This document shows, in pieces, positions 6,945-41,200 of a stretch of 64,000 nucleotides of DNA (the stretch's first letter is position 1; the number at the start of each line of letters is the position of its first letter). The DNA comes from Cenococcum geophilum (taxonomy: Eukaryota). The stretch is from the NCBI GenBank assembly GCA_050273025.1, contig CP158635.1:806001-870000 (forward strand), read 5' to 3'. The position numbers and the translations under genes are program-made. The notes beneath the pieces are model-generated. The model had not been told where the DNA came from. It did no database searches and was given only the letters and a program-made list of their open reading frames with translations.

Positions 6945-6989
6945 TAAAAGCTGCGAACGCTACTTATTAGGAAAATATAGCAAAAAATT

Positions 6990-18889: not shown

Positions 18890-20800
18890 TGCTTATCGGG
18901 AAGCCATGGCGGAAAATCGCACGATTTATAGCAAGGGTAGCTTTCTAAATAGGTAAAGTCCTACTATGATATCTTAGTAACTGCCTAGTTAGCGGCTAAC
19001 TAAGAGACTTACTATATACTCTATGTAGACATAGTAGCATACAAACACTTATATTGTCATTAGTTTTAAGCGTTAATCGTTCCCTTAAATATTACGCTTT
19101 TACCTTCTACTACTACAGAGTAAAGAATTAATGGAAATAGTCTATGCTTAGTGGCTTAGACCTATTCCTATTTTATTATTATAGCTTAGACTAATCTCTC
19201 CCCTTAAAACCAAGGTTTTAGATTTAATATCTTATTGCTACGCCTTGTCCTAACTCCTATTCCCCATAGGTTAATTATAAATAACTATAGATTTATACTA
19301 TCTTCTAGCATTAAAGACGAGAGTCTATTAGTACTAAAATGCATAGTAATCCTGTCCTTAAGGATTATTATCCCTTTATACTGTCCGCCTTAAAGCCAGT
19401 CCCGCGCCTCTTCCATAGCCAGATCTACAGCCCCCTCACTCCTTAATAACCTCTTATTAGCATCCGCTGTAAATAGCTAAAGTCTTATATGCAATCGTTG
19501 GTGTGCTAAATACTTTTAGAGATAGCCTCTATCCTTATAAAGCTTTTTATTAATTAAAGTTTAAAGATAAAGCTCCTATACATTAGATATATTTATTTAT
19601 AATAGCCGTGTTCTATTTAAGAGTGCATAGTAGATTTTAAAATTATAGTTAAGGCCTTTCTACTATAATTCTTATAAGAGGGTATACTAAGTACCTAAAA
19701 ACTAGAACCCCGTAAGGAACCAAAATATAGTCCCTCTAGATTAGGAAGGGCCCCTAAGGCAGCAAAAAAGAATACGGCTTATATTAAACTTCCTTTATTT
19801 AGCAAAAGTGGTTAAGAACTAACGCTAGTTTTCTTTAGCTATTCTAAGAGGTAATTAGTGACGTTAGTATAGTATTATACCCCTAGCGAAGGAGTTTACC
19901 GCCTACCACTTGCGCGCCCCCTACGCCGTAATATTAGGTATACCCCTTAGCGAACAACTATCCGGCGTCTTACCTTATTAATAAGATAATAGGTCCGTGT
20001 ATATAATACTAAAAGTTCATTAATCTAGGCTCCTTATTGGCTAAAATCTTATTAATAATATTAGATATAACTCGACGGTTAAAGGGATAGGGCTAGGAAT
20101 TTGCCTATTACTTACACGTCCTCCTCTTAGCAGTATAGGGCGTCCTCCTTAGCGCCACAATATGGGGTATATCTCTTGGCGAAGGACTATAGGGCTAGGA
20201 GTTTGCCTATTACTTACGCGTCCTCTATCCGCGCCGCAACATATACCATTCCGTCGGACTTCTTAGAAGTTTTTAGAATTTCTAGGCTCAGTAATAGTAA
20301 TTTTAGCTTTAAATAAAACTTTAAAGTGCAGACATAGCGCTTAAACTTTATTTTAGAGCTTATCCTCTCCTAGGAGGTATAAATAGTAACATTTGCACTA
20401 AACAGCACCGCCCGCTTAGGCTCTATATAACTCTAACTTTTCTTCTTTTTACGGATATAAGGCATTCCATCTATTAAGCTAGAAGACACTAATTTAAGCT
20501 AAAGTCTACTAATCTAAGCCAGAGCCCTCTAATATACGCCGTCCTTTAGTTAAAATATGGCCCCTTAATAGCCCGGACGTTATATTAAACGTAGTAATAT
20601 AGTCTAGGTAAAACCTAAAAGTCTTAGGTACCAGTTCTATCTAATTTATTAGGTGACCCGCATTAACACATAAAGAGAACTATTAAGTTCTCACATTAAC
20701 GCTTAACCTTAATCTCTTCCTGTTAACTAGCAACTTCTTACTATTAATAATAGGCTTTACGATACTTTATAGATTATAGGTATCTCTTATACAAACCTAT
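18890..20800 (-). pseudogene. Module gene 3, copy B (more complete), unknown function
   Basis: Long protein-like frame after reverting RIP (VTNYLLEQLK...AVDLAMEEARDWL). Paralog at 6990..8000. Boundaries approximate. Confidence 0.55.
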
Positions 20801-20910
20801 ATAACTTTTGAGCTACACTCGCTGCCTACAAGCAGAACTGTCTTTAGTGCGCTAATATATACAAATCTCTATATATATAGTATAAGAAAGCGATTATAGA
20901 ACTTAGCGAC

Positions 20911-21459
20911 ATGGCAAATAAGTATCTGTCCCTATATTAGGAACTAGAAAGTACTTAAAAAACCATTTATACCTATAAGTCTAGGATTTAAGAATATAAG
21001 CGACGTCTAGGTAGTAAGGCCATTTTAGGTAACAATAAGGACTATAATATAAGTAAGGCAGACTAGGATACGGTAGAAAATGCCACCGTAATAAAGGAGG
21101 TACTCGAAGGCAGGATTAAGGAGCTCTTAAATAAGAAGGCTAAGATAATACGGGGGTATACGAACAAAAAGTCTAAGATAATATAAGATTATAAGAATAA
21201 GAAGTCTAAGATAATACGAGATTATCTAAACGAAAAGTCTAAGATAATATAAGATTATTAAAATGCATTAATTAATGCTGCTAATCGTATTAGTGCTACC
21301 AAGAGCAAAATTAGTAAATTTAAGCGGATGCAATTAGAATTAGTAGGCCTAAAGTCATCTCCGGAACCGATCCGGTCCCTAAGTGTTGGGAAAAAACCAC
21401 ATAGAAAGAGCTTAGAGCAGTAGGTAATGCCCCTTAGGAGGGGCAAAAAGTATAGGTAG
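20911..21459 (+). pseudogene. Small coiled-coil protein with four 11-aa repeats
   Basis: Single frame from ATG 20911 with RIP stops; four 33-bp units at 21130..21261 (reconstructed NEKSEMIRDHx). Confidence 0.65.
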
Positions 21460-22959
21460 GTAGCAATGGGGCGTAATATAGGGATATAAAAGTATAATAG
21501 AGTTAAAGAATAGCACTAGCATTCTCTTGTTTTTAGAGCGTATAGTAGGCATATAGTTACACTTGTTTATATATTAGTTAGTTTTAATTTCATCTTTAAA
21601 TAGCGTCTCTCCCTAATGCCAACATTTAACTAAGTAAAAACTTTAGACCGTTAAATGCTGATAACTATATAAAGGGTCCAAGAACTAATACCCTATATCT
21701 AGCACAAGCTAGAAGAGTAGCCACTAAATTAATTAGCGAGAAGTTACTAATATTATTCTCCTATATTACTAGAACTTTTATATCTCCCTTATAGAAAGGA
21801 TATAGCTTACGCTAGGTATAAGCTTTTCTAAGCTCCGCGGACCCTAGTATTATAGTAGAAGCCGTAAACTAGAACCCTATAATTTCTAAATCTAATACGG
21901 ACTAAAAGTGGGCCCTAAGCACTAATAGTAAACGACTTTCGCCCCTAGCGTAATGCTATAAAGATACAAATCTATAGCCGTAAGCATAAACCTATAGATA
22001 ACTCTTAATATAAGAATTATGCCCAGACATAAGCGAATAAAAATCTATCTTCTCCCCCCTACTTCTAATAGACCTCCAACGCCTACCGCTGCTAATATAG
22101 AAATTAGCTGCAATAATAAGTCACCTGTAGTAATTAAAGCGACTAAAGACAAATTATAAATATCTAAGGAAATGCCGACTCTTAATCTTTAATAGATGCT
22201 TAAGCGGACGACGCGGGAGAATGGCTAGCTTACGCTAGAGCTTCGGCGTCTATGGCAAAAGTACTATAAAAGTATATATATTGTAGTAAAAGCAAGGCTT
22301 GTTATTAAATCCCTTTAATAGGTACTTAATAATTGCCAAAAGTTATAGAAGGAAATTGAGGATGAAATTGCGTAGGGGTTAAATTAAGTTAAAATAATCG
22401 CCAAAATTATATTGCCAATATATCGTTAACTAACGATCTTTAGTACCGGCTTCCTTACTATATATATATAAAGGTTCCAAAGCCTATTTTTAGAGTTAGA
22501 ATCTTTAATTTATCCCTATCTATAAACCCTCCCAATTAATAAAATATTAGTTCCTTTAGATATACTCTAATAACTTCCTACAGTTAAAATACTATAATCT
22601 CCAACCTACTTTCTATCCAGCTAAGTGATTACAATTACTATATCCGTACAATGCTTAGGGTATAACTAGCGAGCTGCATTTACTAAATTGCAAGAGGACT
22701 TTAGAGACTTTTAGGTATTTAAGAAAATCTACCCCTTTAAATCTATAAGCTTTGCAGTGTATAGGAATTAAATAAGTAACTTAATTATAAATCTATGGAA
22801 ATTAAGCAGTATAAATATATAAAAGTAGACCCTAAACTCTAAAGCTTATAACTTATTTCTAACGTATCTAAGACATATAAGGGTAGTGCTGATGTAGGTA
22901 AAATAGGGTAATATATAAGGTCCGGTAGTTGGTTATAAAATCTATTATATTAAGCAAAC

Positions 22960-24805
22960 CTACACACTTCCTCTAATGTCCTTTAATCTTTTAAGATTGA
23001 ATACACTCCTTAGCCGCCCGTTATATCCTCTAGGTAAGTATAGATAAAAGTCCAGTTCCTTTAAATAAATATCCTTATCCAACATGCGTTAAACAATCTC
23101 GCGAATCTTATTGCTCGTCTTATTATTTATGCATACTATTTTTATATTCAGCAGTGATTAAAAGGCGGACTAGTCGTTATAACTTATAAGAAACCACTAT
23201 ACGACCCTTTTGACCTTCAATTTTAGATCTAATCAGACTTTTAGCGTTTATAATAGTGTACGTTATACTAATACGCTCTCTAAGGTAAATAATATCTCCT
23301 TACTTTATTTAGCTAGAAAGATAGTTACCTAAGATAAAAAGCTAAATGTCTAGAATCTAACACCTAATTAATATAAATACCTTATATTATATCTAGAAGT
23401 AGATAAACCTTATTAATGTCTCTACTAAGCAGCTTTACTATTATATTAGCGACCTAAGCCGCATGCACTTTAGAGAGGTTATTAGTAAGTTATTCCTATA
23501 GAAGTATAAGAGAGCTTACGTTTAGAGTCTAATTCCTAAAATAAAGCGATCCTTTAGGTTTTTACTTCGCAATTATAGCATCCCTCTAGAAGCTATATAA
23601 TATACGAAAGCTAACCTACTATTCCAATCCCTGTAGCAAATAGTAAGACCGTCCTATATAATTCGAGGTTAAGTTTATTCCTATACGGTCCCTTAATTAC
23701 GGCTCTTATTTTAGAATTATGGACGAGATTATTATTAGCGTATAAGAATAGGCTCCTAGTAAATCTACTCCTTTTCTAGATAATTAAAACCATAACATTA
23801 TTGCCCTTGGCATCGCGATACCACTAGGATACGTAAAAGGGATGTGACTGCGTAAATAAGGTATAGTTCACTCCTAAAATATAGAGGTATATATACTAGC
23901 CAGCTTGAGGCTTCTAAGGCCTTAATAGTTGGATATATATATAGACTGCATCCGGAATGGGTATCTCCCTCCTATAAGGTATCTTAATAGCTATTTGTCG
24001 TATTCTTGCTTAATTTAGCGGCTTTCTATACTTAACGTTGCGGTATAGCACTTGACTAAATTGTAGGACAGCTATAAATATCTAAAGGCATATTGCTGCG
24101 AATAAATATACCGCTAGCGGCGTTAATAACTCTTTAGATGGACTATAAAGATATATTATAGCTATAACTATAGCGCCAAGTATTAGGTGGAGCTTCGAGA
24201 AGATTTTATAGGCGTATTGACGTATACTAGCGACAGAAGAGAGCAGCACGATAGCTATAGTAATAGCAGCCTAAAGAGCTCTATTAGCTTATATTTGCTT
24301 CCTAGAACTAAATTTAGCTTATTATTAGCGCCGCCACATCTAAATATGTACGTAGGTTAGGCTTCCGTAAAGATATAGCCGCCGCCGTATAAATAAGGCC
24401 TTTAACTATAGCCACTCTTCCTAATTATTAGTGTATTTAGGCGTAGGTACTAAGCCTAATTCTATAGCGGCTAGCAATAAGATTTATCTAGGCCCCTAAT
24501 AACAGTGGCGTAAGATTAATCGTAGACATTAGTCTAGAGCGTCTTATCAGCCTAGAAATATCTTTAACTTAGACAGTAATGTAAAGAACGTTTGCTACTA
24601 AGAATGCCAGAATTAAAACCGTGTTAAATAGCGTTGTCTTTCCAGAACCTCTTAAATATTAATAGATCTGTAGATAAAATACGTACTTGTAAAAATAAAA
24701 TATTGCGTAGGTACGGGCGAATTTAATAGTTTTTAATAGCGGAGAAGCGGTAATAAATAAAGCTACAAGGCCTAAGCCCACTAAATACCATTGTATAATA
24801 TCCAT
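22960..24805 (-). pseudogene. Ferric reductase / NADPH oxidase-family transmembrane oxidoreductase (Starship FRE-type)
   Basis: Transmembrane helices with heme His (..H..LGRVAIV.GLI; YEIFSKLHLIL), FAD motif QSHPFYVS, NADPH motifs (E)GPY(G) and VLLFATGIGI.G, C-terminal LKELDF; several introns. Confidence 0.9.
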
Positions 24806-25649
24806 AGTAAGTAAGAACGGTGATTTTCAAAGCCTATAAGCGCGGCGTACGCTTACTATCCGTGCTTTATGTTTAACCAACTTTAGCTTAGAATATACTA
24901 ACATTAGTTATACTTTAAAAAGGTAGGATAACGGAAATAGGTCCTTTGCCAAGAGCAGTAATATTATTAGATTGGCGGCAATTTAGCGTGCTAGATAGAG
25001 CCAACTTATTCTAGCAGTAGATTGAGTACTTTTATTAGTGGCATTAAGTGGATTTAAGAGCTTTGGCGCTTTTAAAGCGCTAATACTATACCTAAAATAG
25101 AAGTCCTTAAGTAGTAACAGGTACGTGTATAGGGGGAAGTAGTTAGGGCAGTAAGGGGCATAAGCTTACATAGTTACTACCTATATACATACTATACACG
25201 GGCCTATCCCATTCTTCTATAATATACTTTAATTAGATATAAGTTTAATAAGTCTAAAATTATATCTATTTTTTTTCTTCTAATACCTAAAATATATTAA
25301 GACTTGCTATAAATAGTATATATTAAAACTGGAGCGCTGCGGCGCTTAATAGATGGAGTGGATTTTGCCTTAAATCTACGCTACGCTAATCTAATAAGAT
25401 TACCGGCTAAGAGCCTTAAGCTTTTTTTAAAAATAGAATTTTCGCTAATATACGGCCGGCGATCCAAGACTAAAGGATTAGGAATATTTACATACTTTAT
25501 AGTGTACACTATAGCGAAGCAAAAGCAGTTAGTTAAACTTTATAATAAGCAACTAAAGAGACAGTTGGATGGCCTAAAAAGTAAATACTACTAGTATAGA
25601 AAGCTAGAAAATATTAATTTAGCATTAATTATCTAGAACCGCAAAAAAA

Positions 25650-26240
25650 AAGAGATCTATATATATATATTAATAGATCTAGAGTTATAGTGGCCGTCTA
25701 AGGAGCAAGTTATAAGTGGGTAGTTAAGTTACAGGTATCTTTACTTCTAACGTCCAGTAAGCAGCTAGCGCATCCTAAGTCTATAAACAAGCTACCTATA
25801 GATATAGAGAGAATTAGGTTAGGAAAGTATTTAAGGCCTATAAGTACGGCTAGGAAGAAGAGATTAAAAAAGGTTAGGGAAGCGATTATATCTAGGGAAT
25901 TAATATCTAAAGAAGGGCAGATATCGGAAATAAATTTACCTAAAAGATTAGTTATAAAAGACGCACTAATCTTTCTAGAACTGCTATCGTTTAATTTAAC
26001 TATACTAAAGAGGAGAAAAGTATAAGCGGGTTTCCTTCGGCGTCTACTATATTAGGACTGTGGTTATTAGGAGTTAAATAGAGGAGGTAATAGTAAGGGT
26101 GTAGCCTTAGGCTTAATAGATTAGAGGGGAGCGAGGAAGTGTATAATCAGAGTTATAAGATAAGTTAGAAATTAGCGTATAATAAGACATAAAAGTATCT
26201 ATTACGACTTAGGTTTATAGGTAAGAGAATATAGTTGCAT
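25650..26240 (-). pseudogene. Unknown protein whose Pro-rich N-terminus is paralogous to 36460..36620
   Basis: Shared block encoding about QxIEPxATPLPLPPLF in both places. Confidence 0.4.
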
Positions 26241-27387
26241 TAAGTGGGCAGCACCTTTCGTATTCCGCTATAGGGAACTTTATAGCATATGTAACAAAAC
26301 GACTACTACCTAACTCCACTATCACTATTATCAATAATAACAATAACGTTATTTTCGAGTCGTAAGCTAATATAGCACCATCCGCCTAAGTATTTAAACC
26401 CTTACACACCGCGCTAAAAGCCCCGCATTAGACAGTTTACAAACACTCTACCTACCTTAGTTAATTTCATTCTACCTATATAATCTTAAAACGTTAAAAC
26501 CGAACTAAACCCTTATTATACGGCATAATCAGCATATTAAGCACCTTAACAGACTTCCTATGCAATGACCCCTTAGGGTATTAAGGTATTAGAGGTTATA
26601 AAGGGCATAGATATAATTAATATAAAGATAAATAGGGAACAACTTAAGGGCTAGTTAATTTGGCTTTAAAGGCTATAGATAGAGTCGATACTAAAACTTA
26701 AAGGGGACGTTAAAGGTGCTATAAAATCACTTAAGGAACGCCTTTAGAGCTAGGTCGACAAGGTCAGAAGTGCATTAATATAATATGGCAATTCAAAAAT
26801 ACCTAGATAATCCCATCCGACCTATTATAGCGCCTATTTAAAATCGGAAATAGCCAAAGAGTGTCTTAGGTTTTAGCAACGTGGGGCCTACGGTGCAGTA
26901 ACCTCTAACATTTAGGCGATTTCATACAGCAGAACGTAAGGTAGAGACGGATAATAGGTCTAAGTTAAGAGGGATTAGAAGAAGAGAACAATTTACAATA
27001 ATATAGTGAAATCGCTTATTTCGCAAGACAAATGTAGTAAGAGGCAGGATAGGATAACGCAGGTAGGGCTATAAGCGACGTTTATTTCTAAGAGGACTTA
27101 GGGAGAGGTTTTAGAACAACGTACCGCTATATTAGGACAAAGGATATCTTTTACGGTGCGGTGCTTAGATAGAGGGCTGCTTTAGATTTAACGGACCACC
27201 AATATATCTACGATTTTTCCTAAAAGCGGTCCCGTTAAAGGGCTAAAATTAAACCCTAAATATAACCCAATATAAATAAGTTGTGCTTAAATAGTAGTAA
27301 ATTCACTCTATATATACTATAACCTTATAAGAACCTAAACATTAATTTATTCTATCCTTTATCTTATAGCATTTCGCTATATCGCTA

Positions 27388-28340
27388 ATATATATATTTC
27401 ACTTCCTTTTAATAGCTTTTCTATACTACTAAGGTTTTACCTATACTTAGAATAAATAACTTACGGTTATTAAAAACGGGATCTTTATAGGGGCTAATGG
27501 TTACCCTTATAGATATATCTCTTAAACTAATCCCAGCTTTAATAATAATATAATGACTTATCTATTACCGCTATTAGCCTTAGAAAGAACAAGGGTAGAT
27601 AGCTTAGATCTTCTATATGCTCCAACACAGAAGATCACTAATTAAATAGTAAATTTTCTACGACTTTAGGTCTCGCTAGGGGCTTATATAGCTATAAAAT
27701 ATCTTAAAAATAGATATATTACCCTACCGCAAAACCAGCTAGGTAAACCAATAGCGGCTAGGACGGTTTACGTTTTTAAAATAACCTAGCTAAGTAGCAG
27801 CGAAGTATTGACGGACGTACTGCAGTGGATAGTAAATGGCGCTAGCGGTGACCAGAGAGAGAAACTCTTAACTACTTAAAACTTTAACAATAACAGATAC
27901 TATTAAATTAATAATAGCAACCTCTCTATAGTATATTAGAAGAAGTTTCCCAACCTAACTCCTAGTTAGCCTAGATCTGCTAATAAATAATAGTATAAGA
28001 CTAATCTTATTATCCCTACGGATCTATAACCTAATTCTATATATATAGTATACTAGGTATAATAATGGCTAATAGAATCCGGCGCTTTAGGACTACCTAA
28101 TAGGAAAAATAAGTACTATATAACCTGCTTTAACCTTAATATTATTGCCGGTCCTATCTAAGGGGAGCTATTAAACCCGCTTCCGCAGTAGAACCCCTAA
28201 ACTACTACTATTTCCAACTTCTAATCCTACACTATATACACTACTAATCCTCTTTTAACTAGTAGCGTCTTAGCTGGTAGGTTCTAGATAATTTTAAGGG
28301 CTAAAGTAGGTAATTATAGATATAGTAAATAGTACAACTA
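27388..28340 (+). pseudogene. Secreted fungal protein with probable N-terminal His after the signal peptide (DUF7492-like by recollection)
   Basis: Hydrophobic leader, then reconstructed A-HTWNEQL..NGYP; also KYLENGHITLPQNQPGKP, QNFDD.RCYQIN, EQWCETD, YTVYWVWQWP, KDEYYTTC. The His codon is now TAT (RIP-type change). Confidence 0.75.
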
Positions 28341-28350
28341 ACAGATAGCA

Positions 28351-28447
28351 ATTATCCCTTCGCATATAATTTGCGTTTATTTATTATTAACAAGAACTGG
28401 CTAATTAAATTAACCAAATTAAATTGTTCGTGTTTAGAAATTCTGGT
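28351..28447 (+). repeat. ~100-bp element, inverted copy at 36871..36969
   Basis: ATTATCCCTT..AATTTGCGT..TTATTAA..AACTRGCTAATTAAATTAA in both copies. Confidence 0.8.
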
Positions 28448-30165
28448 ATTCCCACACGGACCAACTTAGAGATAGACGTCACCGTTTAAAGGAATAGTTT
28501 CCGTAATTCTATAGTCGTTTCCCTTAGTATATTACTCTCCTCGTATATATCTTATTTCCGTTTATAATCGTCAAATATACTACTCTGCTTTAGAATTTAG
28601 TAATTTAAGAAGCCGGCAGCTGTTAGAAATTTTCTCATTAACTTATATCCAAAAATAGTAGCGAGAATCAGCCCTTATAGCTAGGGTAAACTATTTTTAT
28701 TATATAAGGGACCAGTTCTAGTCCCGTCCGGCCTCATATAAAAGTTTAAGGGGTTATCCTATCTATAAAGAAGCTGTCGGCCTATCCTATATCTTACTCT
28801 TCAGATTAATCGCTATCTAAAATATAGCTCCTTCCATTATTTGTCGCTTTAATAGCTCCAATTATTCTAGGGTCCTAGGATTAGTATAATTACTCTACTA
28901 ATAGACTTCTGAATATTATTATAGATGCTAGTTAAGGAGCTAGTGGCCCAGTAGTGGAATTTTTCTTTCCGCTATTTATTAACTGCGTTAGCGCCCAACC
29001 CTAATTCTAACCCCAATTTCTATCACTAGGAGGTACTAAAGGACACCCCCCCCGGCCTACCTAATAACTTTTTAAGCTAACAAGCTCCTAGAGCCGCTCC
29101 TTACAGGCCTAAATATCCCTAATTCTACCAGTAACCTTATAATCACTAGAGTATCCGATCAGAATGGGTTTACTAAAACCAATACTGCTCTTTACATAGC
29201 GAAGTTCTTTCCCCTTAACGGAGTTAGCTGCCAAGTAATTGTATCTAAAAAAGAGTTAATAGATCTTTCTAGTACAATACCCGTAGATCTAGGTATAGAT
29301 AATAGGGTTATACCTATTGAGTTTATAACCTATATATATCTCCTCCAAGTTATGCCAGTTATCCCCTAAACATCTTATTATTAAGAACGTCGGTAGATAT
29401 CTTAAACTCCTCCACCTAGCGAACCGCTTCTTTTAAAAGACTAGTACTCTTATTCTAATTACTATTAGAGCTAATAAAATGCCTAAAGATGGTTTAAATA
29501 GTCTTTCTCTATTAAAATGAATTGTATTAATTGCTTAATCCTTTAATCTATTAAGAAATACGGGGATAACACCGTTAATCTATAGCATTGCCTAAACGTT
29601 AAGGGGTTTAAAGAGCTAATAGAATAGTATTATAGCTGCCCTAACGAAACACCTATACTAAGTTTATATAAAGACCATTATTAAAGGCACTCCTAGGCTA
29701 AAGACACGGAGGTAATATATAAGCTACTTATCTATCTAATAAACACTAAATATAGAGAGTAGGTTTAGTAGAAGTAGTAACTAAAGAAGGTAATTCTTCT
29801 CTTATAGGAGAGAGTCGCCCTATGCCGTACTCCTATAAGTACGGATATAGGAAATCTCTAGGCATTTCAACTCTATTGTTTAAGGATCTCTCTCTAGGGA
29901 GCTTAACTATATAAACTAATGCGTAAGTAACTTCTAAGCTTATATTAGCGTAGTAATAGTAATAAATCTATATAACGGACTTAGGGCAATAAAACCCCAT
30001 TACTTTTATTATACTTTTAATTTTTCTATAATCGGGTCTTAAGCAAATATACTCTTCTATATTTTAGCTAAGTGCTATAATATAACCTTTCTAGTATCTC
30101 CGTAATCGACGTCTATTATAAAAAGAGTATTACGGAATGGTTAAATTTCTAATCTTGGAACATTC
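28420..30165 (-). pseudogene. Intron-containing gene relic of unknown function
   Basis: Long protein-like frames after reverting RIP (e.g. KEKFHHWATSS..FYMRPDGTRTGP); no family recognised. Confidence 0.4.
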
Positions 30166-30356
30166 TAGGTTACTAAGTTTATCGCTAGGTGCGTTTAGCA
30201 TTAGTTATTTTTAAATAAATAAGGTAGACCTAGTTAAAGGTTATTTAGACCCTTTATATTAGCTAAGTAACTTACTTAATTTTATAATTAATAATAATTC
30301 TTTAATTAACGTCTGATACGGATGCTATCTAGCCCTACGCAGACTACTCCGTACAC

Positions 30357-31308
30357 AAGGGAAAAGTAATATTAATAGGAAAAAACCCTTGCTGCTGGGG
30401 GGGAGGAAAAACCCTATAAGCCACCTCAGTAGGATAAAAAACCCCGATTTGCCATGTCCGTCCGTAGCGGCGGCCCTATAGGTCTACGGCTACGTCCTAT
30501 CCTCCTTAGATGTTCGAACTCCTTAGGAACCACTGCTTCCTTCTCTAGCTTACCCTAGCTAGGGTTCACTACGTCCCAGCTAGGCCTTGCCAATTAATTG
30601 CCGTACTGCTGTTTCCCATATCTTGGCCATCCCCTATATGCTATTTCTTATCTAACCATTACCATATACGCCATGCCTTCCCCCCCCTAGGGCCTATTAA
30701 AGGCGTAAGGGGGATTTATCCGTTCTAACCACCATAATACTAATAAGCGAGCGGGATATTATGTTGTATTTAGGTATCTTTTATGCCTAGGCCCCAGCTA
30801 GGCCCTTTCTAAGGGTTACTACTCCGTCGAAAGAAGACAGGAAAAACCGTGGGTCGCAATCCAGGCTACTAGGTGGTATTTGGTAGAAAAAACGGCGAGT
30901 GACCGCATGCTCCGCGGGCGATCGCCCTAGGGGTTAGGAGGGGCCGTATATTTGCTTATTCGTCTACCTATTCGTTTACAATCGCTCGTTTATTAATATA
31001 AGAGGTTGTTAATGCTTTCTATTAGGGGTCAGGGGATACTATTAAATGCCGTATATCTACGTTGGATTGTATAGGTGCCTTAATAGGAGAATAGCGTAGC
31101 TGAATTGTAGAGGGCCATAGTAGTGGTTTTTGAGATCTTACCATCTGAAAATTTTTCACCACTACCCACAACGCTTATAACCACGACCACCAGGTCCTAT
31201 CGCACGCTATACAACGTCTCTGCGTTGGCTCTGAGTCTGAACTTTAAAGACCTAGGTTTGTAGCCGTCACTACGTATAGGTGCAGAGTCCGTTTTCGACG
31301 GCCTAATT
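30357..31308 (+). repeat. ~950-bp non-coding element, copy 2 (less RIP-damaged)
   Basis: Inverted match to 1703..2660; non-triplet indels between copies; several self-complementary segments. Confidence 0.9.
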
Positions 31309-31665
31309 TTATAATTAGGTTGGGTAGAATTATACTTACGATCTATTCTAAATATAAAGCTCTATATACAAAGTAAAGAAATTATAGGTTCTTATACCGT
31401 TTTTATTAGCCGTTAAAACACGTATTAGCTGGTAAAGAAACTACAGGGACCAGTTTTGGGTACCCTTAAGAGAGCCCCGTCTTAGTCCCCCGCTACTAAA
31501 AATAAAGGACCCGAAATTGTTACTTCTAACTTTATGGAAGCCCGTTTTTAGGCCTTATTAGAATAATATTTATTGCGCATAAATCCTAAGGGCTATATAT
31601 CTAGCTGCGTCTTCCTACTACGACTCCATTAATATACTTAAAACAGCTGGTCTGCTCTCTTAATT

Positions 31666-34600
31666 ATAAAGCGTTGTTACCATATCCACTAGCTAAGTCT
31701 CTGCACCTAAGGCAATGAAATTGCTCTTTTAGAATCGGACAGGCTCTAAACTCTTACTAATTATATTCCTGATCCCAATATATAACCCAGTCTATTCGTA
31801 CTAATTGGTAATATAGCGAAATTAGTCGCCCTCCGAGAGCTATTTAGGGTAAAGAGGGCGCGAAAGTTTATAAATAAGTAAAGCGTAGGCGAGATACATC
31901 TCCACCTTAACCTATTTAGCATTTTTTACGGCAGACCGGTACTTCTTATAGATAGCAATCTTCCTAAACAAAGTCTTAGGGGAAAGATAGTTATAGCCGA
32001 TAAGTGCTGTAAAACAATATGGCGAACTATTTAGAGAACCCAAGCTAAGCTATCCGGCCTTTCTCTAAACGAAATTATAAATAGCATCTATACCCGCCTG
32101 CTTTTTCCTTTTATAGATATCTTCTGCTTCTTTTATACTAATCTTAGTTCTTTTAAACAGATTGCCTACTACATTACTACGTGGTTAGAGAAAGGCCACT
32201 TATTAACCCTTCCAAAGAGTACGTACCCGAGGGTAGTAATCGTAACCGAGAAGATACCTCTGGGAGCAGAAAGCGAGGCTAAAGAGGCCTTTTTATGGTT
32301 ATTAGGAGAGGAAACAATAAAGGATCTGTCTAAGCTAATATTAGTAATTAATATAGTCGCTCTTTTCCCAAACGGTATAATGTCTATTAATGCTCGCTAT
32401 AGACGCCTAAAAGAGCGTCTGATGAATAGTTTAGATTAAGTGCGAAAGAGTAAAGAAGATGGACGAACTTTATTCTCTGTAACTTATTTCGCCGCCTTTC
32501 TTAAGTACGCCTATAGGAACTTTTTAGAAACTGTTAATAAACCCTTTAATTTTATTAGAGCGTCAAGGATCTATAACCCCGTTGCTTCTAACCTAGTGGA
32601 ATATCTATTAAATTTCCTAAAATATATTAAGTCGACTAATAAGCTAATAGAGTTTGTAGTTCCAATAACTGCTTCTAGTCTCTTTTTGGACAGCTACCCG
32701 CCTAAAGCATATAGTAAGTATTACCCTACTAGAAAATTAAGTCATGCTAACTTTAATATAGCGTTTAAACCTAAGACTGTATTTAATATAATTTATAAGG
32801 ATGTCTTCTGCTAGGTAAGTAAGGCTTAAGTTATAGCCTTTAAGTAGTCCAACCATGTTATTTTACGAAGTGACTTTATTAATATGGTCGAAAACCAATT
32901 CGTTTACTGCTTTTAATAATTTACTTATAATAATATAACTACTATAGAAATTTATAAGAGCAACCTTATACAATTCCAAGACAGATGGCGCCATATACAG
33001 AGCAGCAATATATATCTGTCTTATTTACGTAGGAGACCGCAGTATTACTTACCCTGCGGGCACTATATTTGCGAGAATTGCATTATAGTGTTTGGGGATC
33101 GCTGCAAAGACGACCCCTAGATCTTTAAAGTGCGCCACTACTTTCTCTATAGAGAAGAGATGCTAAACAATATAAGCGTAAAAGTACACCCTCTAACTGC
33201 AGGAGTAGGAGTCTTATATATTAATGGAGGAGGTATACGGGGTATTATGCTATTAATGCTAATAAAACAAATATAAGATCGTGTCGGTCTACCAATTCCC
33301 TTTCAGTGGTTTATTAAAGTTGCTTTTAGGGTCAGTATAGGTAAGAGCTCTATACACTTTAAAGAAAAGAAATTAATACTTATAACTTAAGGAGCGGTAA
33401 TCGCTATAGATTATTACATTAAGGGACGGCCCCTTAAAGAGTCTATCTAGATATTCCTGGAGATTGCAAAACGTGTCTTTAAACGGCGGAAGGCTTTTAA
33501 TATCCCATTTATTTCCCGTGCATTTAAGTTAATAGTATTATATTTTACTAACGGTTTATACTTAGCTTAAAATATTAAGTCCGTCCTAAAAGAAGTCTTT
33601 AGTATAGATAAAAGCATTCTAGACTACTTTTATGCAACGTCTATAGGAATAAAGATTGGCTTACCAGTCGCTATAGTTAGCAGTCATTTATTATATTGTA
33701 TATTTACTAACTATAACGGGGTAGGTATACGGGACGAAGATTAAGGTAAGCTCCCTATATATAACTTAGTATAAGAGTCGTCTAACAAACCTAAAGACAA
33801 CGCCGTTATAAGGCTAAAGGATGGCTATGGAAGAGTGCCGCTTTAGGAAATATAAGATTGAATAAACCCTACCATTAGATAAGACTAATATAAAATTTAG
33901 CGTATAATCCGCATCTATAGCGCCTGAGTATGCTTTAGCTTACCTCTTTTATACCTAAAACTAACTATACTTTATAGTTTCTTTCCGCCAAAATATATTA
34001 ATAAGGTTGGTATATTTTAAGATATAGAACTCCTTAAGAATAACCCCCTACTCTAGGCGCTTTTAGAGGTATTAGTAATGTTTCCACTTGTTAAAGAACC
34101 TAACTTTATTATATCTTTAGGTACTAGTAAGCCAAGGCCAAAAAATTACTAGGTATCTACGGATAACTACTATAGTATTCGGAAAAACGGAATATTCTTT
34201 AGAACACGTGATCTAATCTTGGAGAAAATGCGCGATAAAACGGTAAGATGGGCCTATAAAACTGTTAGACTGGCGGTCCAAATTCTTAATAAAATTTACC
34301 GCCTTAGTACTGACTTTAATACTACTAAACCAAGACTTAACGATATAAGAAGTATACCTGAACTTAAATCAAAAGTCGAAATGGACTACTCCCTATCGGC
34401 CCGGATTGATACTATAGCACGCTATATAATTGTATCTCTATTCTATTTTAAATTAGACTCTCTTTTAGAGAGATATAATAGGAAGTATATAGTTACCGAA
34501 TATATTTTATACTTAATAATACGCAGTAATCTAGCCTTTAGAGCCCTGTTAAGTAAATTAGCAAATAACTCTACCGGGTTTTTAATAAATAATTGGCCGA

Positions 34601-34863
34601 TTCCCGGAATATTTAATAATACTTCCTTTATAGGTAAAGACGGGAACTTCCAGAAACGAGTTAACCTAGATACTTTTGGGAAATTTACAATATCTCTAAA
34701 GGAAGGTAACGCCGAGCCTTGCAATATTAGTAGGTTACCTTTCTTAATAGAGAACCTAATAGCCGCTTAAGGTCTAAATGCTCCCTTTAGCAGAGCAGAC
34801 CACGGTAAGCGAAAAAGGTTATCTGTATACGATACTCTCCTAAGGAAGCGGCAACGTATTTAA
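31666..34863 (+). pseudogene. RING-finger + patatin-like phospholipase (Starship PLP-type)
   Basis: (C)LS(C)LRRRPQYYLPCGH(C)ICENC RING; VHP.TAGVGVL(C)I(D)GGG.RGI oxyanion motif; AF(G)VSIG GxSxG elbow; FQD..LLENDP; multiple GT-AG introns; C-terminal basic RKRQRI*. ORF-track pieces 32440 and 34219 are fragments of it. Confidence 0.92.
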
Positions 34864-35129
34864 ATAATAACAACTACTTCGGGTAGACTTATGCAAAGAT
34901 TTAATTCAGAGAATATTCTATATAGGAGGCAGGTATAGAGGGGCGGGACGAAGTAAAAGTAGTAAAAAAGATTGCATTATCTTTGCCCACCCCCAGCTAG
35001 AATATCCTGCGTACTTTTCTTATAAACAACTTTAAGATAATATCTAATAATCTAATTGCAGAACTTATGTTTATTTATTATATACCATCCTTTTCTATAC
35101 TACTTATTATATTTTTTATTTTTAAGTTC

Positions 35130-36640
35130 TGTGGATATTATTTCTTCTTCTCTAATATCACACCATTGGTTAGGGGTTTTTTTTAAAGGCGGCTCTATAA
35201 TAGGCGCTTAAGCTTAGTACGGACACAGCGGAATTTTTCTTTTAAAAATTCCAGCCATTTAACCGGATTTTTGATTTGTTATAATTTAAATATTTTAGAA
35301 AGTAACTAAGATATATTTAGGCTTTTGTCTTATTAACCCAGCTTATACTTTTCCCTTGCGTTTAAAGGTTCTGCTACAAAATTTTTCTAAAATCTTACTA
35401 TACTCTTGCAGTCTTTGTAGGGCTTGTAATATTGCAATATATAAATCCCAGCACTGGCCTTAATTAAATCTATCTTAATAATCCTATTACGGCACTTAGT
35501 CTCCTTAGAATAACGACAGTGCTTCGCACCTTATAGATACTTTACCGTAATATCCGGTTTGGGAAATTAGGAGCAAATACGGTATTATAGCACCTCTCAG
35601 ATGCCTTATACCTTTTAATTACGCTTACCTGGCTATTGGACTTCCGCGCCAACCAGTATATTTAGCTTTAGACCCCTAGTACGAGCTTCTAGTCGTTTGC
35701 GTAAATACACCTGTTTATAATTACGTGGTAGAACGAAGATAGGATAGAGATTAATCTTCTCCTAAAAGAACACAGCCGACGAGGATTTATCTATAAATTA
35801 GTCTATTAAAAAGAAAATAAGTTCCTAAGCTGGGTTGACGGGCCTTATAGATTACCCCCTAGGCTAGGTAATTTTGGAACGGCAATTCTAATAGCTAAAG
35901 GTATTGGAATCGCGGCATAGAAAAAGACGGCGAGAAGAGACACTATAGCGCCTTTTAAATTGACTTTATTTGTAATTTTAACCTATATGTCCGCTCCTTA
36001 TATGCTCTATATTCTATCTATAAAAGTGCTTAAAAGAAGTATACTGTTTAGTTTAACTCCTCGTCTAGCAAGCCTTTTACCTTAGCTTTATTTATTTACA
36101 CTTCTAATTATATATTTACCCAGAGCATCTTATATATAGACGGGCAATCTACGCCTTTAACTATATTAGGTCTTAGCTTTATATTTATAGCGATACTATT
36201 ACCGCTTTCTTCTTAGTTGGAATTAGAAACATTGGCTATTATATTTTAACTTTCTGCTTCTTTAAACGTCTTATTATCCTCTAGGTTACTTACCTCTGAC
36301 TTAAAAGCGGAGTTTAACGGACTTTAGCCTGCGATTGCGGTAATATCTGGGCGGTTAGGGTTAACAAAACTTATTAGAACTATATTGCCTTGGCTAGGCC
36401 AAGTATTGCGTTCTATTTGGCCTCTTTAACGTAGTAGAACTGGAGCTTATTAAGGGGTAAACAGAGGAGGTAAAGGCAAGGGAGTAGCTTTTAGCTTAAT
36501 AGGTTAAAGACCAGGGGAGCGAGGAAAGGCGTTATTAGAGTCGTAATTTAAGTTAAATATCAAAATATAAAGAGACGTAAAATTATTTAGTAGGACTTAA
36601 GCCTATAGGCGAGAGAGGCTTTATAGGCTAAGAATCAGCT
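35130..36640 (-). pseudogene. Gene relic of unknown function
   Basis: Pro/acidic N-terminus shared with 25650..26240, followed by a protein-like frame. Confidence 0.4.
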
Positions 36641-37732
36641 TAGGAATATAGTGCTATTTAAACTTCGCTTAATATAGCTTAATAGAGGATAGAGCTACGG
36701 GAACACGTTATTCTCTAAGTTTAGGCCCCTATTATATAACCACTAACTACTTATAAGTTTAGTAGGCGAGCATCCTAAAAGGATATTTCCTCTCTAGATG
36801 CCACAGCTAAGAGCTTAATAGTGTTAGATATTCTAGCAAAAAGGACTTAAGATTAAGTAGTCCGTGTAAAACTAGAATTAAAACAACGCAAATAGCCTTA
36901 TTTAATTAATTTAATTAGCTAGTTTTTATTAATAACTATAGGACGCAAATTAGTATGTTAAGGGATAATATAATAAAGCTAATAATAGGCTTTCCTAACG
37001 GCTTGTGCTATGTACCAATTAAGGACTTTAGTAGCCACCTATAGTATATTCTTAGCAGCTAGCAGCTTGTTTTAACGCTCTAAAAGCTCCTCCTATTCGT
37101 CTCTAGGAACCTTAAACTAAATAGAGCGTATTAGACATAGTAAGTTTAGCTTTCTCCTATAAGCGTCTACCGATCTTTATTCCTAAAAGTCGAGGCTATA
37201 CTTATATTCTGGATTGCTAGGAATCGCTTCCATTAAGTCTTAGAATGTCTAGTAATAGCCTATATATTACTAGCTTTGGACCTAGCGGTAAGACTTATTA
37301 TACGTAGTGGCGTTAAAATTATAGGTAGCTCTGTATCGCCCTCTTTATCGTAAGCCTATAATAACTACCCTGCTTTATTATAAGACACCTATTTTAGAGA
37401 GCAGTTAATTAGGTTCCCCTTACTGCGTTGCAGATATAAGAGGAGCCGGGACTATTGGGCATAATAGCCAAGTTTTAGTTCGCATAGAAGGAACTAACTA
37501 TAGTGCTAGCTACGTCCAACAGGGCGCGAGGATGTACGCTGCTACTTTAGTCACATTTTCCCCATTATTGCCTTAAGGCCTTCACTATGTGGACTGGTTA
37601 TTAAGAAAGGAGAATTTATTTAATAGATTACGAAACCCTCCTAACGCTCCGTATAAGCTAGAAAACAGAATTTGCTTATAAAGTAAAAGATTACCTTTAG
37701 CAGACTTTTATAAAGCTCCCCATACTCCTAGC

Positions 37733-38268
37733 TATTTATAATAATTACTATAAAGCCTAATACTAAGACTATATAACTGTATTATATATTAGTAAGCTAA
37801 TAGCTAAAATCGGAGGGGTTTTATATATCCCGGTTGCGACTATAATATAACTGGTCTCCTTAACGGTGTAGAATATAATAGAAACCACTAATGCAAACTA
37901 TATACTAATTAACCAAATAGAGAATATAAATATAGGGTAATTCTGTATATGGACTAATTACGTAAGCTAAAGATAAATAGTAGTTAAATAAAAAAAACTA
38001 GACGCGCTAGACCGGCTTATCTCTGGAACATTTATATATTGCTACTAAGGCGTAAATAAGTGCTATAGAAAAGTAACTAAAGAGCCCTATTTTAATAATA
38101 GAGGGGTTTAGATTCCTATAAAGCCAAGCCATTATAGTAAAGAGGGTAAGGTAAATAAATCTGCCAATAGGAGCCATAATTTTAAATATCTAAAAGGAAA
38201 AGAATAAAGGTGAAAGAGGGAGAGGGCTAGCTTATAAGGACATTATTTATTAGAAATAAGGCGAGCTA
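37733..38268 (+). repeat. Left arm of a ~0.5-kb inverted repeat
   Basis: Reverse complement of 43742..44199; differences are mostly transitions, plus one ~77-bp indel. Confidence 0.95.
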
Positions 38269-41200
38269 TATAACGCTATATTAGTCAAGCGGCTTCCTAG
38301 GTAGGTTAGCGCCTAATATAAAAGACGGCACCTAGGGCGTCCGACTATCGCGGTTAACTAAAATAGCCTAGCTTCCGCTATTAAAAAAGGGAGAATCTTC
38401 TTCCATACTCTATATTGATCTTTTTAGTATCTATTTTGCTTAAGTAATTCTATTTAACTAACGACATTATCCATCCTGTCTATTCTTAGTAATTCTGTCT
38501 AATTATTTATTAACTTTAACTTCCATAACTCTAAATAACCATTTAACTGCAGCCCATTCTAGGTACACTATATAAATACTAAAGAATTATATAGCTTTAA
38601 GGGATTGGGGTAAAAGGCTAATATTTTCTTAGTCTGTAAAACAGTTAGGGCGTAGAATATACCTATATAGTAGCTCCTAACCTTAATAAATATGGGTTTA
38701 GCGAATGTTATAAGGAAAATCTCTTTACGTTTATTTTTAAATTTCCACTTCTAGTTGTAATCTATACCTTTTTTTAAAGCTATTTAATACGCTGTCTTAT
38801 ATAGGAAACTAAGATATAAAAGAGAGAGTAAAAGACTAAGGGAATTTTAGGCTGATAAAAATGGGTTGCCTTACTAAGATATAAAATATAGTAAACAACC
38901 AATCTAAAGTTAGATTAGTTAAAACGAATTAAGCTAAATAGCAATAATTGAATTAGCGGATAATACTGCTAATACTACTAGTAGTGCGGCATATTTCTGT
39001 TCCCCGTTAAGCTTAAACCTTAGGTAAGTTTTTTTTACGTAAGTTATACAAATAGTATAACGGTGGCCTTTTATGGTTTATTTGCGAAAGTTTATATATA
39101 AAGGGCGGCTAAAGAATATAGCATAGACCATTGCTATAATAGGGTCGCCATAGGTAATAGGTAAAATTGATGCCGCTTTAGGAGTAACAAGGACCGGTAA
39201 ATACCTGTCTTAAAAAGCGGTAAGATTAAATTAAGGGCGAGAATGCTACAGATAAGGTCCCTAGGGAGGTTATACTTCGCCTTACTCTCCAGCCATACTC
39301 CAGGCGCTATTAGTATTGCGATATTATATTCTAGGGAAAAATAAGATTTATTCCTTAATAGGAATAGAGATAGGGTAGGAAAATATCTTACTAATCCGAA
39401 CACTTAGTCCTTAAGATTTAAGGCCAGCCACTATTTAGAGCTTTAGGTCTTCTAAGTATATAAAAGGGTATAAACAAGCACTTGAAGCCGCAACCGCTGC
39501 CGCAACTTTAGGCCCGCCAATGTACCCGGCTATTAAGATTCTAAGACTTACCCCTATACCAGTTAAAGCCGCATCACGAAGCACTTTTATAAAATCTTAA
39601 TTAAGCTTTATTATACGCTCCCCTAAATTACCTAAGGCTAATTCTCTATCTTATATATATAGAATATAATTAAACTAGCTCTTACACCAGACCGGGCGTC
39701 TATTATGCTTAAATTATGCCAAGATCTCAGTACTATAGTTACTAGTCCCGCGGAGGTAGTCTAAATATTAAGTTATATAATTTCTGCGCTTAGAGGATTA
39801 GCTGAAATAAACACCAATTGTCTTAATAAACTATAACTTCGTTAATTTCGCTTAGTAATCATGCGGATAATAGACTTACTTTAACTTTTCCTAGCTCCGG
39901 CTCTAAAAACTCATTAAATTTATATAAAGAAGCCTTATCTGCTTTAGAAATGTTCTCTCTGTCTTTAGGGACCCAACGACCCGGGAACATTATATTGGTC
40001 ATTTGTTCCATAATATACTCTAATAAAGATAAAATATATACGTTTAGGCGTACTTTAAGTATAGGTACTAAACAAAGAAGTTAGTAGCTTATAATAAGTA
40101 ATAAAGGGGTGTAATATACCTCTAGAGACTGTATATTAGTATAGTCCTTTAGTTATATTTATATATTGTTAATAAAACCTAGAATAGCTACGCGACTAGC
40201 TGTATACGTATACTGCATAATAAAGGCGGTTTGGCCTTAGTAATGAGAGGTAAGAGTATATATAGATTTAAATTAGGTTGCGATACAGTGTAAATCTAAC
40301 GGTGTTAACCTATTATAGTAGGTAGGCGGAGATAGCTTTGGGTAGTATATTCTAGTCTAAGTAGTAAAGTATCTATAGCTCTATACGTAACAAAGACTAC
40401 CGCTAGTAGCTTAGGGTATATTAATTAGGAACAAGAGGCGTTATAAAAAGTAGGAGGAAGGTGCTATAAAGTAGGTGCTTTAATAATTAACGGGGGCGTA
40501 AGTTAGAATTAGGGTACTAGGCAGATTAAGCGTTATAACTAACATATTAGTAGCCTATTATAAATAGCTTTTTAGCTTTATAGTAATATAATTATTTAAG
40601 GGCTTACCGGATGTCTTAGCCTACTATAAAAGATATAGCAGCTTATAAATATATTAAAAGAGGTTACTTAAGGTTTGTTTTACTAAGCACTAAATAGTAG
40701 CACGTATACTAACGCCACGTGAAATTATCCGTTCTGCCCCTCTAGAAAGTCTAGGCCGCCACTAAATAATCATACTTACCCCTCCCTTTTCCCTTTTTAA
40801 TAAAGGCCGCGCCTATCCTCTATAATCTATACTATAAAAAACCCATCTCAAATAGGAGGCTATCCCTAGATTAGGGCTAATTTTAGTAGAATTAGGGAAA
40901 GAGCTAAAGGATAAGTAGAAAGAGAGCAATAAAGATATAAAGATATACCTAGATAAACTTTTACCTCCCCTTATAGAGCTTATATAAAAAGTAGCGGATC
41001 TTTACTAGGTAAATTAAAAAGAAAATTATATCTTACGCTTTTACTAAAATGGTTATAGATTTGGCGGAAAGAAGTTAACTTCATTTAAGTAAAAAATAAA
41101 TTATTTTACTTTCTCCTCTCTATTGGCTTAATCAACTTAATTCCTATATAGGCGCTAGATGGTATACTAAAAGTTAAAAAATAACGTTTTAAAGTAGGAG

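What the first reader, a model, noticed from the sequence alone, without database searches (positions are those of the whole stretch)
30357..31308. Conserved ~950-nt non-coding, hairpin-rich element: candidate structured RNA or cis-acting site of the giant element
Seen: two diverged copies (here and 1703..2660, inverted) keep long near-identical blocks separated by non-triplet indels, so this is not coding. Self-complementary segments with counterparts in the other copy: GGCGA..CCGC/GCGG..TCGCC (30894..30926); GTAGTGGT/ACCACTAC (31120..31165); CCCT-TTCTA-AGGG; two crossing helices TACGCC/GGCGTA and CCCCT/AGGGG (30667..30712, pseudoknot or switch geometry); and a terminal GCCGTC/GACGGC stem (31263..31302) whose counterpart reads CCTC/(G>A)AGG, an apparent compensatory G:C to C:G swap. 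Each copy appears to sit upstream of a same-strand gene relic. Inference: an ncRNA, structured leader or origin/transfer site carried by this element family. I know no described Starship RNA matching it.
Basis: partly seen in the sequence, partly recalled or inferred. Interest (0 to 1): 0.78.

Follow-up and report, generated by a model that had tools for sequence, protein, structure and literature searches.

The report
Degraded copies of a fungal retroposon
The two look-alike 1-kb stretches are mutation-riddled copies of a high-copy, non-coding "copy-and-paste" mobile element (a SINE-like retroposon) of a filamentous fungus, not a structured RNA or control site belonging to a giant element.

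Summary
The repeat is real: two inverted, full-length copies, A at 30291..31303 (sense on the minus strand) and B at 1706..2731 (plus), 76-77% identical, with mostly non-triplet indels. It is not a private feature of this region. Fifty-one of those copies are full length, with the same two ends and largely unrelated flanks. Direct repeats of mostly 11-18 bp flank 50 of 52 copies, including an exact 14-bp repeat around A. The 3' end carries a (TAC)n tail of variable length. One DNA contig joins A's flanks across the element, an empty site. No frame is open beyond chance, and there is no Pfam, Rfam or tRNA match. Folding energy equals that of shuffles, z about 0. RNA reads cover the element strand-specifically and leave the flanks silent. 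C-to-T changes are RIP-like. Verdict: a non-autonomous non-LTR retroposon without a Pol III head, an ordinary new member of a known kind. Its partner LINE was not identified.

The parts
30291..31303 (-). Copy A of the retroposon, full length (1013 nt). Sense strand is the window's minus strand. RIP-degraded, 13.6% from the family majority consensus.
   Evidence: nhmmer, model positions 4-1033.
30277..30290 (.). Target-site duplication of copy A, the copy next to the 3' tail (TAATTTTATAATTA on the plus strand).
   Evidence: Read directly. The TSD script found it. In run X1 a joint 30276->31304 has 14 letters that fit either side.
31304..31317 (.). Target-site duplication of copy A, the copy next to the 5' end. 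Identical 14 of 14 to the other copy.
30291..30298 (-). 3' tail of copy A. It reads ATTATTAT in sense, the C-to-T-degraded form of the family's (TAC)n tail.
31263..31302 (-). 5'-terminal stem-loop (GCCGTC...GACGGC) at the first 40 nt of the sense RNA.
   Evidence: 96.7% of cells paired in 50 relatives. One pair is GC in 40 copies and CG in 5, and those 5 are the variant subfamily.
1706..2731 (+). Copy B of the retroposon, full length. Sense strand is the window's plus strand. It belongs to the variant ('GGTCCTC' 5' end) subfamily, is 19.9% from the consensus, and has no recognisable target-site duplication.
2714..2731 (+). 3' tail of copy B, (ATT)n. This is the degraded (TAC)n, about 5 units.

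Best explanation
The two stretches are independent, old insertions of one family of about 1.0-kb non-coding, non-autonomous non-LTR retroposons. The family is 'SINE-like' but has no Pol III-type head.

Likely mechanism:
- Source copies are transcribed from their exact 5' end (GGCCGTCGAAAT...). This is probably by RNA polymerase II, because the sense strand carries T4-T6 runs.
- The RNA ends in a (TAC)n tail.
- It is copied into new AT-rich sites by the reverse transcriptase and endonuclease of an autonomous LINE, through target-primed reverse transcription. This leaves 11-18-bp target-site duplications.
- After insertion, copies A and B were degraded by repeat-induced point mutation (RIP), like the rest of this 34% GC window.

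Shown: unit boundaries, dispersal, target-site duplications, tail, absence of coding capacity, strand-specific family transcription, RIP-like decay, and subfamily membership of A and B.

Inferred: LINE dependence, polymerase II transcription, and priming by tail/target microhomology.
For: Dispersal and unit boundaries:
The family profile hits all 123 (133 hits), and 51 are full length.
- All 50 flanked full-length copies share the same two ends.
- Flanks are almost never alike: 10 of 1225 5'-flank pairs and 3 of 1128 3'-flank pairs show any similarity.

Insertion signature:
- Flanking direct repeats occur in 50 of 52 copies, missing in B and L067. Lengths run 8-20, mostly 13-18, mode 15. By my count on that listing, 37 of the 50 begin with TA.
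- The tail is (TAC)n with n>=2 in 31 of 49 scored copies, and (TAY)n with n>=2 in 43 of 49. It varies from 1 to 6 units.
- 5'-truncated copies with intact 3' ends exist, such as L037, L077, L056, L026 and the 64-nt L054:329-393.
- Run X1 has one contig (depth 68.7) joining 30276 to 31304, with 14 letters shared by both sides. That is an unoccupied site.

Copy number and transcription:
- In DNA runs X1 and X5 the summed contig depth over the element is roughly 75-250 and 35-95 times that of the flanks.
- In raw RNA reads (X21) depth is 324-554 for first mates on the plus strand and 12-45 on the minus strand. Depth is 0 in 20 of the 22 flank-only bins and at most 1.86 in the other two.
- The strand bias excludes DNA contamination. 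With the usual library chemistry it puts the RNA on the minus strand, the polarity given independently by the tail.

Non-coding, and no Pol III-type source:
- The longest stop-free stretch has a median of 88 codons (maximum 163). The shuffled consensus gives a mean of 100 and a maximum of 223.
- No Pfam family passes in six frames of the best copy; the best E-values are 0.15-0.19.
- Rfam at E<=1 finds nothing in the element. ARAGORN finds no tRNA in 9 loci.
- Sense-strand T4 runs lie near positions 150, 258, 452 and 556, and T5-T6 runs near 863 and 893.

Decay and subfamilies:
- C-to-T rates are CpA 0.25, CpG 0.17, CpT 0.065 and CpC 0.034.
- B's five nearest relatives by transversions (0.020-0.031) are exactly the five variant-5'-end copies. 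The A-B distance is 0.055.
Against: - No autonomous LINE sharing the 3' end was found. The 28-nt 3'-end motif occurs in the window only in A and B, and no whole genome was available.
- At about 1.0 kb, with no tRNA, 5S or 7SL head, it is not a canonical SINE.
- 92% of what was laid from X21 runs on into unlike sequence. The RNA therefore comes from other family members, and transcription of A or B themselves is not shown.
- The RNA strand rests on the usual library convention and was not verified for this run.
- 3'-truncated or rearranged copies are about as common as 5'-truncated ones in this sample: 12 against 15 hits. The sample was also chosen by an internal motif, so 5' truncation is only weakly supported.
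- Summed contig depth is not a copy number, as the tool itself states.
Confidence: 0.88

Rival explanations
1. The repeat derives from a cellular long non-coding RNA gene. Its transcripts are passively retro-copied by a LINE, possibly as a chimera with a short LINE 3' end. The model is the 1.1-kb WEIRD RNA and the MINE chimeras of Magnaporthe. On this reading the family is a set of processed pseudogenes rather than a dedicated retroposon.
For: - It has the same size class, is non-coding, is abundant as RNA, and has an exact 5' end and 10-20-bp direct repeats.
- Passages of PMC2104539 describe WEIRD/MINE with 10-20-bp repeats.
Against: - There are hundreds of copies with several subfamilies, 7-22% from the consensus. 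That implies many successive source copies, which is typical of a self-propagating retroposon lineage.
- The tail and 3' region are constant across subfamilies.
- No 5'-truncated LINE segment of variable length is attached, unlike MINE.
Confidence: 0.07
2. It is another class of transposon remnant: a solo LTR, a MITE or a Helitron fragment.
For: - It is a short, non-coding, high-copy unit in a repeat-rich, RIP-affected region.
Against: - The flanking repeats are mostly 11-18 bp and variable, not 4-6 bp.
- The ends read GGCCGTCGAAAT... and ...AAAGAGTTAC(TAC)n. They show no terminal inverted repeat and no TG..CA.
- The simple-repeat tail varies in length.
- No second copy sits at LTR distance in 50 loci; flanks are largely unrelated.
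Confidence: 0.03
3. It is a functional structured RNA or cis-acting site (leader, origin, transfer site) belonging to a giant mobile element.
For: - Local helices are kept in relatives at 84-99% pairing.
- The 5'-terminal stem has one double change, GC to CG, in 5 of 50 copies.
- The family is transcribed.
Against: - The helices are almost invariant sequence, which says nothing either way. The one double change is a single subfamily event.
- Folding energy equals that of shuffles.
- alifold covariation is no stronger on the sense strand (10 pairs) than on the antisense strand (16 pairs). It is mostly GC<->AT, which RIP can produce without selection.
- There is no Rfam match.
- The unit is dispersed with its own target-site duplications in at least 123 contexts.
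Confidence: 0.02

Closest known systems
Eg-R1 and EGH24-1, the 'SINE-like' non-autonomous non-LTR retroposons of the barley powdery mildew fungus (Blumeria)
   Same: Both are high-copy, non-coding or nearly so, and abundantly transcribed. Both lack A-box/B-box Pol III promoters and carry internal T runs that argue against Pol III, so they are classed as SINE-like rather than true SINEs (passages of PMC6022598; here).
   Different: No sequence relationship was tested. Eg-R1 is reported to have an AAUAAA signal and no genomic tail. This family ends in (TAC)n, and AATAAA was seen in only 1 of 5 good copies, at position 1014, beyond the tail. The host of this family has RIP-like mutation, whereas Blumeria is reported to lack RIP.
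Mg-SINE with its partner LINE MGL, and the WEIRD/MINE retro-chimeras, of Magnaporthe
   Same: These are LINE-mediated insertions flanked by 10-20-bp direct repeats. Mg-SINE mimics the 3' end of MGL. WEIRD is a 1.1-kb non-coding, highly expressed RNA that is retro-copied (passages of PMC2104539). That MGL and Mg-SINE end in (TAC)n is my recollection; it occurs nowhere in the text of that paper (0 occurrences of 'TAC').
   Different: Mg-SINE is recalled as about 0.47 kb with a tRNA-like Pol III head, and no such head is present here. WEIRD occurs only fused to MGL pieces, whereas this unit stands alone with constant ends.
Canonical fungal SINEs (for example the AfuSINE families of Aspergillus fumigatus)
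   Same: Both are non-autonomous and flanked by short direct repeats, given as 4-14 bp in the abstract listing of PMC5063351.
   Different: Those are tRNA- or 5S-related and short. This family is about 1.0 kb with no tRNA or 5S match.

Membership tests
Non-autonomous non-LTR (LINE-dependent) retroposon | A discrete unit with constant ends, dispersed in unrelated genomic contexts | tested here: met
   51 full-length copies share the same ends. 10 of 1225 5'-flank pairs and 3 of 1128 3'-flank pairs show any similarity.
Non-autonomous non-LTR (LINE-dependent) retroposon | Target-site duplications of variable length (about 7-20 bp) directly abutting both ends | tested here: met
   Found in 50 of 52 copies, lengths 8-20, mode 15. 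Copy A has an exact 14-bp repeat. One contig in X1 shows the empty site.
Non-autonomous non-LTR (LINE-dependent) retroposon | A 3' tail of A-rich or simple-repeat sequence of variable length | tested here: met
   (TAC)n with n>=2 in 31 of 49 scored copies, and (TAY)n with n>=2 in 43 of 49, ranging 1-6 units.
Non-autonomous non-LTR (LINE-dependent) retroposon | No reverse transcriptase or other conserved ORF | tested here: met
   The longest open stretches are no longer than in shuffles. No Pfam family passes in six frames of L002.
Non-autonomous non-LTR (LINE-dependent) retroposon | The 3' end is shared with, or recognised by, an autonomous LINE of the same genome | not testable with these tools
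   No whole genome is held. The 3' motif occurs in the window only in A and B.
Non-autonomous non-LTR (LINE-dependent) retroposon | 5'-truncated copies with intact 3' ends | tested here: inconclusive
   Several exist (L037, L077, L056, L026, L054). 3'-truncated or rearranged copies are about as frequent (12 against 15 hits), and the sampling was anchored on an internal motif.
Canonical SINE (Pol III-transcribed) | A head derived from tRNA, 7SL or 5S RNA, with internal A and B boxes | tested here: not met
   Rfam at E<=1 gives no match in the window copy or inside the element in 8 good loci. ARAGORN finds 0 tRNA in 9 loci.
Canonical SINE (Pol III-transcribed) | A short unit (about 100-600 nt) free of internal Pol III terminators | tested here: not met
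   The unit is about 1010 nt. Sense-strand T4 runs lie near 150, 258, 452 and 556, and T5-T6 runs near 863 and 893.
Solo LTR | TG...CA termini and a 4-6-bp target-site duplication | tested here: not met
   The ends are GGCC... and ...(TAC)n. The duplications are mostly 11-18 bp.
MITE / DNA transposon | Terminal inverted repeats and a short target-site duplication of fixed length | tested here: not met
   The two ends, read directly in L002, are not complementary. Duplication length varies from 8 to 20.
Described structured RNA family (Rfam) | A match to a covariance model, or structure above chance with covariation | tested here: not met
   There is no Rfam match in the element. Whole-element z is about 0. 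Covariation is no stronger on the sense strand than on the antisense strand.

The most novel reading that the evidence does not exclude
Some members of this family escape RIP and are still active. On this reading its abundant, strand-specific 1-kb RNA, seen in RNA-seq and in fungal metatranscriptomes, has been taken over by the host. It would act as a long non-coding RNA, or as a source of small peptides in the way the ROPIP1 peptide is encoded on Eg-R1 in powdery mildew. The conserved 5' stem and the 3' hairpin would then be functional RNA modules.
Probability: 0.08. Interest if true: 0.5.

Novelty: new member of a known kind. Interest (0 to 1): 0.2.

Why it matters
Mainly as annotation. This about 1-kb unit, and probably hundreds more like it in the same genome, should be masked as a retroposon. 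It should not be read as a regulatory RNA or as a hallmark of a giant element.

It is a clean fungal example of a long, head-less, LINE-dependent retroposon with a (TAC)n tail and strong strand-specific transcription in a RIP-active host. It could serve as a marker for insertion polymorphism. It could also be a handle for finding the active LINE that mobilises it.

Tried and rejected
- Whole genome: none is held for this window, so copy number and the partner LINE could not be sought there.
- Earlier notes of this scan returned nothing by place, by sequence or by words.
- Rfam on the window copy and on 8 well-preserved loci gave only a 22-bit bxd_5 match (E 0.16) in a flank of L036, which I take as chance.
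- ARAGORN found nothing.
- Coding reading: rejected.
- Global and local folding z-scores gave no signal.
- Covariation by alifold on 26 of the 50 metagenome copies (those with GC >= 0.475; A and B left out) gave 10 sense and 16 antisense pairs with double changes in at least 2 copies. The structure was derived from the same alignment, so the excess over the slid controls is expected. Most changes are GC<->AT. I rejected this as evidence.
- Partner LINE: a RIP-tolerant search for the 28-nt 3' end found only A and B in the window. Short 3'-only hits in loci (L054:329-393, L030:194-432, L007:867-1088) have too little upstream sequence to tell a truncated copy from a LINE end.
- Organism: the profile matches what passages of PMC12910237 report for Cenococcum geophilum. 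That profile is heavy RIP, about 150-200 Mb contig sets, abundant repeats and abundant Tad1 LINEs. I have no sequence test of this, so it is a guess only.
- Literature: searches turned up no description of this family. One search was uninformative. These searches cover the held open-access library only.
- I did not scan the rest of the window (6001..27000 and 35001..64000) for protein domains, so the 'giant element' context was not evaluated.

Full report
**What is there**

The window is AT-rich throughout (GC 0.28-0.41 per kb) and almost without open frames: 10 stop-free stretches of at least 120 codons in 64 kb.

- The reported repeat is real. blastn pairs 30282..31295 with 2733..1714 at 76.3% identity over 1059 columns, and nothing else in the window matches.
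- A profile built from the family finds exactly two full-length copies, 31305..30281 on the minus strand and 1707..2731 on the plus strand.
- Over 992 aligned positions the two copies have 766 identities, 159 transitions and 67 transversions.
- There are 22 indels, only 2 of them multiples of three, and identical blocks of up to 40 nt.
The unit runs 66-70 nt further at one end than reported.

**It is a dispersed mobile unit**

Reads and contigs of four public runs were laid on 28000..35000.
- In the two DNA runs the four bins inside the element carry summed contig depths of 70,512-234,861 (X1) and 4,402-11,656 (X5). The flanks carry about 500-1,450 and 66-172. The tool warns that this is not a copy number, but it marks a high-copy repeat with sharp edges.
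- One X1 contig (depth 68.7) joins 30276 directly to 31304, with 14 letters that fit either side.
- The sequence shows why: TAATTTTATAATTA stands at 30277..30290 and again at 31304..31317. That is an unoccupied site plus a 14-bp target-site duplication.
- The flanks are themselves several-fold deeper than single contigs. The empty site may therefore be a paralogous copy of the host repeat rather than an allele. Either way the element is an insertion.

- All 123 match the family profile (133 hits), and 51 hits are full length.
- The 50 full-length copies with at least 50 nt of flank all begin and end at the same bases.
- Their flanks are unrelated: 10 of 1225 5'-flank pairs and 3 of 1128 3'-flank pairs share any similarity.

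**Anatomy and polarity**

In the orientation opposite to the window's plus strand at copy A, every copy starts GGCCGTCGAAAT. A subfamily starts GGTCCTCGAAAT.
- Every copy ends ...GACGTTAATCAAAGAnnTAC(TAC)n, followed at once by a repeat of the sequence that precedes the 5' end.
- Direct repeats were found in 50 of 52 copies, missing in B and L067. Lengths run 8-20, mostly 13-18, mode 15.
- 37 of the 50 begin with TA (my count on that listing). The tail/target junction therefore usually reads TAC|TA, which suggests priming by microhomology. This is an inference.
- The tail has at least 2 TAC units in 31 of 49 scored copies, and at least 2 TAY units in 43 of 49. It varies from 1 to 6 units.
- In A and B the tail has decayed to (ATT)n.
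- Truncated copies with intact 3' ends exist (L037, L077, L056, L026, and a 64-nt remnant at L054:329-393). They are not clearly commoner than other damaged copies.
- Variable target-site duplications of this size plus a simple-repeat tail are the signature of target-primed reverse transcription by a LINE. That is established knowledge of non-LTR elements.
- The Magnaporthe MGL system gives 10-20-bp repeats (passages of PMC2104539).

**Not coding, and not derived from a small RNA**

- The longest stop-free stretch per copy has a median of 88 codons (maximum 163). Shuffles of the consensus give a mean of 100 and a maximum of 223.
- Six frames of the best-preserved copy (L002) match no Pfam family; the best E-values are 0.15-0.19.
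- Rfam at E<=1 finds nothing in the element, either in the window or in eight good loci. ARAGORN finds no tRNA-like gene in nine loci.
- The sense strand carries T4 runs near positions 150, 258, 452 and 556, and T5-T6 runs near 863 and 893.
- A full-length Pol III transcript is therefore unlikely. The same argument was made for Eg-R1 of powdery mildew (passages of PMC6022598).

**Transcription**

- In raw RNA reads (X21, about 12% of the run read) depth over the element is 324-554 for pairs whose first mate lies on the plus strand. It is 12-45 for the other direction.
- 20 of the 22 flank-only bins have depth 0, and the other two have at most 1.86.
- Metatranscriptome contigs (X15) cover the same bins only.
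- The 10-40-fold strand bias cannot come from contaminating DNA.
- By the usual convention (first mate antisense) the RNA is the minus strand. This agrees with the polarity read from the tail.
- 92% of what was laid from X21 continues into unlike sequence. The RNA therefore comes from other, better-preserved family members, and A and B themselves are not shown to be expressed.

**Structure claims**

They are almost invariant, and nearly all the changes seen are one-sided.
- The single double change is in the terminal stem (GC in 40 copies, CG in 5). It belongs to five copies that form one subfamily.
- Copy B's five nearest relatives by transversion distance (0.020-0.031) are exactly those five. 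The A-B distance is 0.055.
- The 'compensatory swap' is therefore real, but it is one event between source lineages. A and B are independent insertions, not a local duplication.
- Whole-element folding energies equal those of dinucleotide shuffles: z is 0.14 and 0.02 for sense, -0.04 and -0.44 for antisense (30 shuffles each).
- Local z medians are -1.29, -1.17 and +0.29.
- alifold on 26 of the 50 metagenome copies gives no more double-change pairs on the sense strand (10) than on the antisense strand (16). Most are GC<->AT, which RIP can create without selection.
- A conserved 5' stem and a hairpin about 35 nt before the tail may serve transcription or reverse-transcriptase recognition. This is inference.

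**Decay**

- Copies lie 7.4-21.7% from the majority consensus: A 13.6%, B 19.9%.
- C-to-T changes occur at rates of 0.25 in CpA, 0.17 in CpG, 0.065 in CpT and 0.034 in CpC.
- That is the context bias of repeat-induced point mutation, and it points to a filamentous ascomycete host.
- The species was not determined. The resemblance to published descriptions of Cenococcum geophilum (passages of PMC12910237) is an untested guess.

**Verdict**

This is a non-autonomous, non-coding, about 1.0-kb non-LTR retroposon family. It is SINE-like in behaviour but not a canonical SINE. It is represented here by two RIP-degraded, independent insertions.
- The partner LINE, the polymerase and current activity remain open.
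- I found no description of this family in five informative literature searches of the held library. Repeat databases could not be consulted.
- It is an ordinary finding, of annotation value.

Noticed in passing
window 27457..28150 (+): A stop-riddled relic of a DUF7492-domain gene (Pfam PF24320, E 2.6e-38, read with X at stops).
   Followed up: no
window about 31700..34900 (+), RING-like matches near 33028..33087: A long, stop-interrupted reading frame with weak RING-finger matches (E 0.004-0.009, below the curated cut-offs). By my reading of the translation it is followed by a GGGIRG motif, reminiscent of patatin-like phospholipases (recalled). No Pfam patatin hit was found.
   Followed up: no
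window 28000..30276 and 31318..35000: The DNA flanking copy A is laid by many contigs at 88-99% likeness. Its summed depth is about 10 times that of single contigs in X1 and X5. Copy A therefore sits nested inside another multi-copy, RIP-affected repeat.
   Followed up: partly
window 4286..5109: A tandem array with self-matches at offsets of about 36-42 nt, 77-83% identity. It is open in several frames and translates to a repetitive peptide-like pattern.
   Followed up: no
window 57945..58494: A tandem array with a 108-nt period, about 80% identity between units. It overlaps a 205-codon open stretch at 57911..58528.
   Followed up: no
window 3029..7488 vs 8025..19872; 37733..38341 vs 44199..43668: Colinear diverged duplicate segments at 69-79% identity. 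There is also an inverted pair of about 600 nt at 88-89% identity, about 5.3 kb apart. These may be other degraded repeats, or the ends of another element.
   Followed up: no
window 50205..50305 and 54595..54744: Two patches of a short-period (about 10 nt) repeat, related to each other at 82-95% identity.
   Followed up: no
L030:194..432: A weak hit (E 8e-18) covering only the last about 270 model positions, beside a full-length copy in the same locus. It may be a truncated old copy or the 3' end of a related (LINE?) element. Only 193 nt of upstream sequence is held.
   Followed up: partly
L011, L073, L022, L021, L010 (3' ends): A group of copies carries a (TAA)n-like tail and a variant 3' motif (TTAAGCAATGAAT...) instead of TTAATCAAAGA...(TAC)n. 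This may be a distinct subfamily with a different tail.
   Followed up: no
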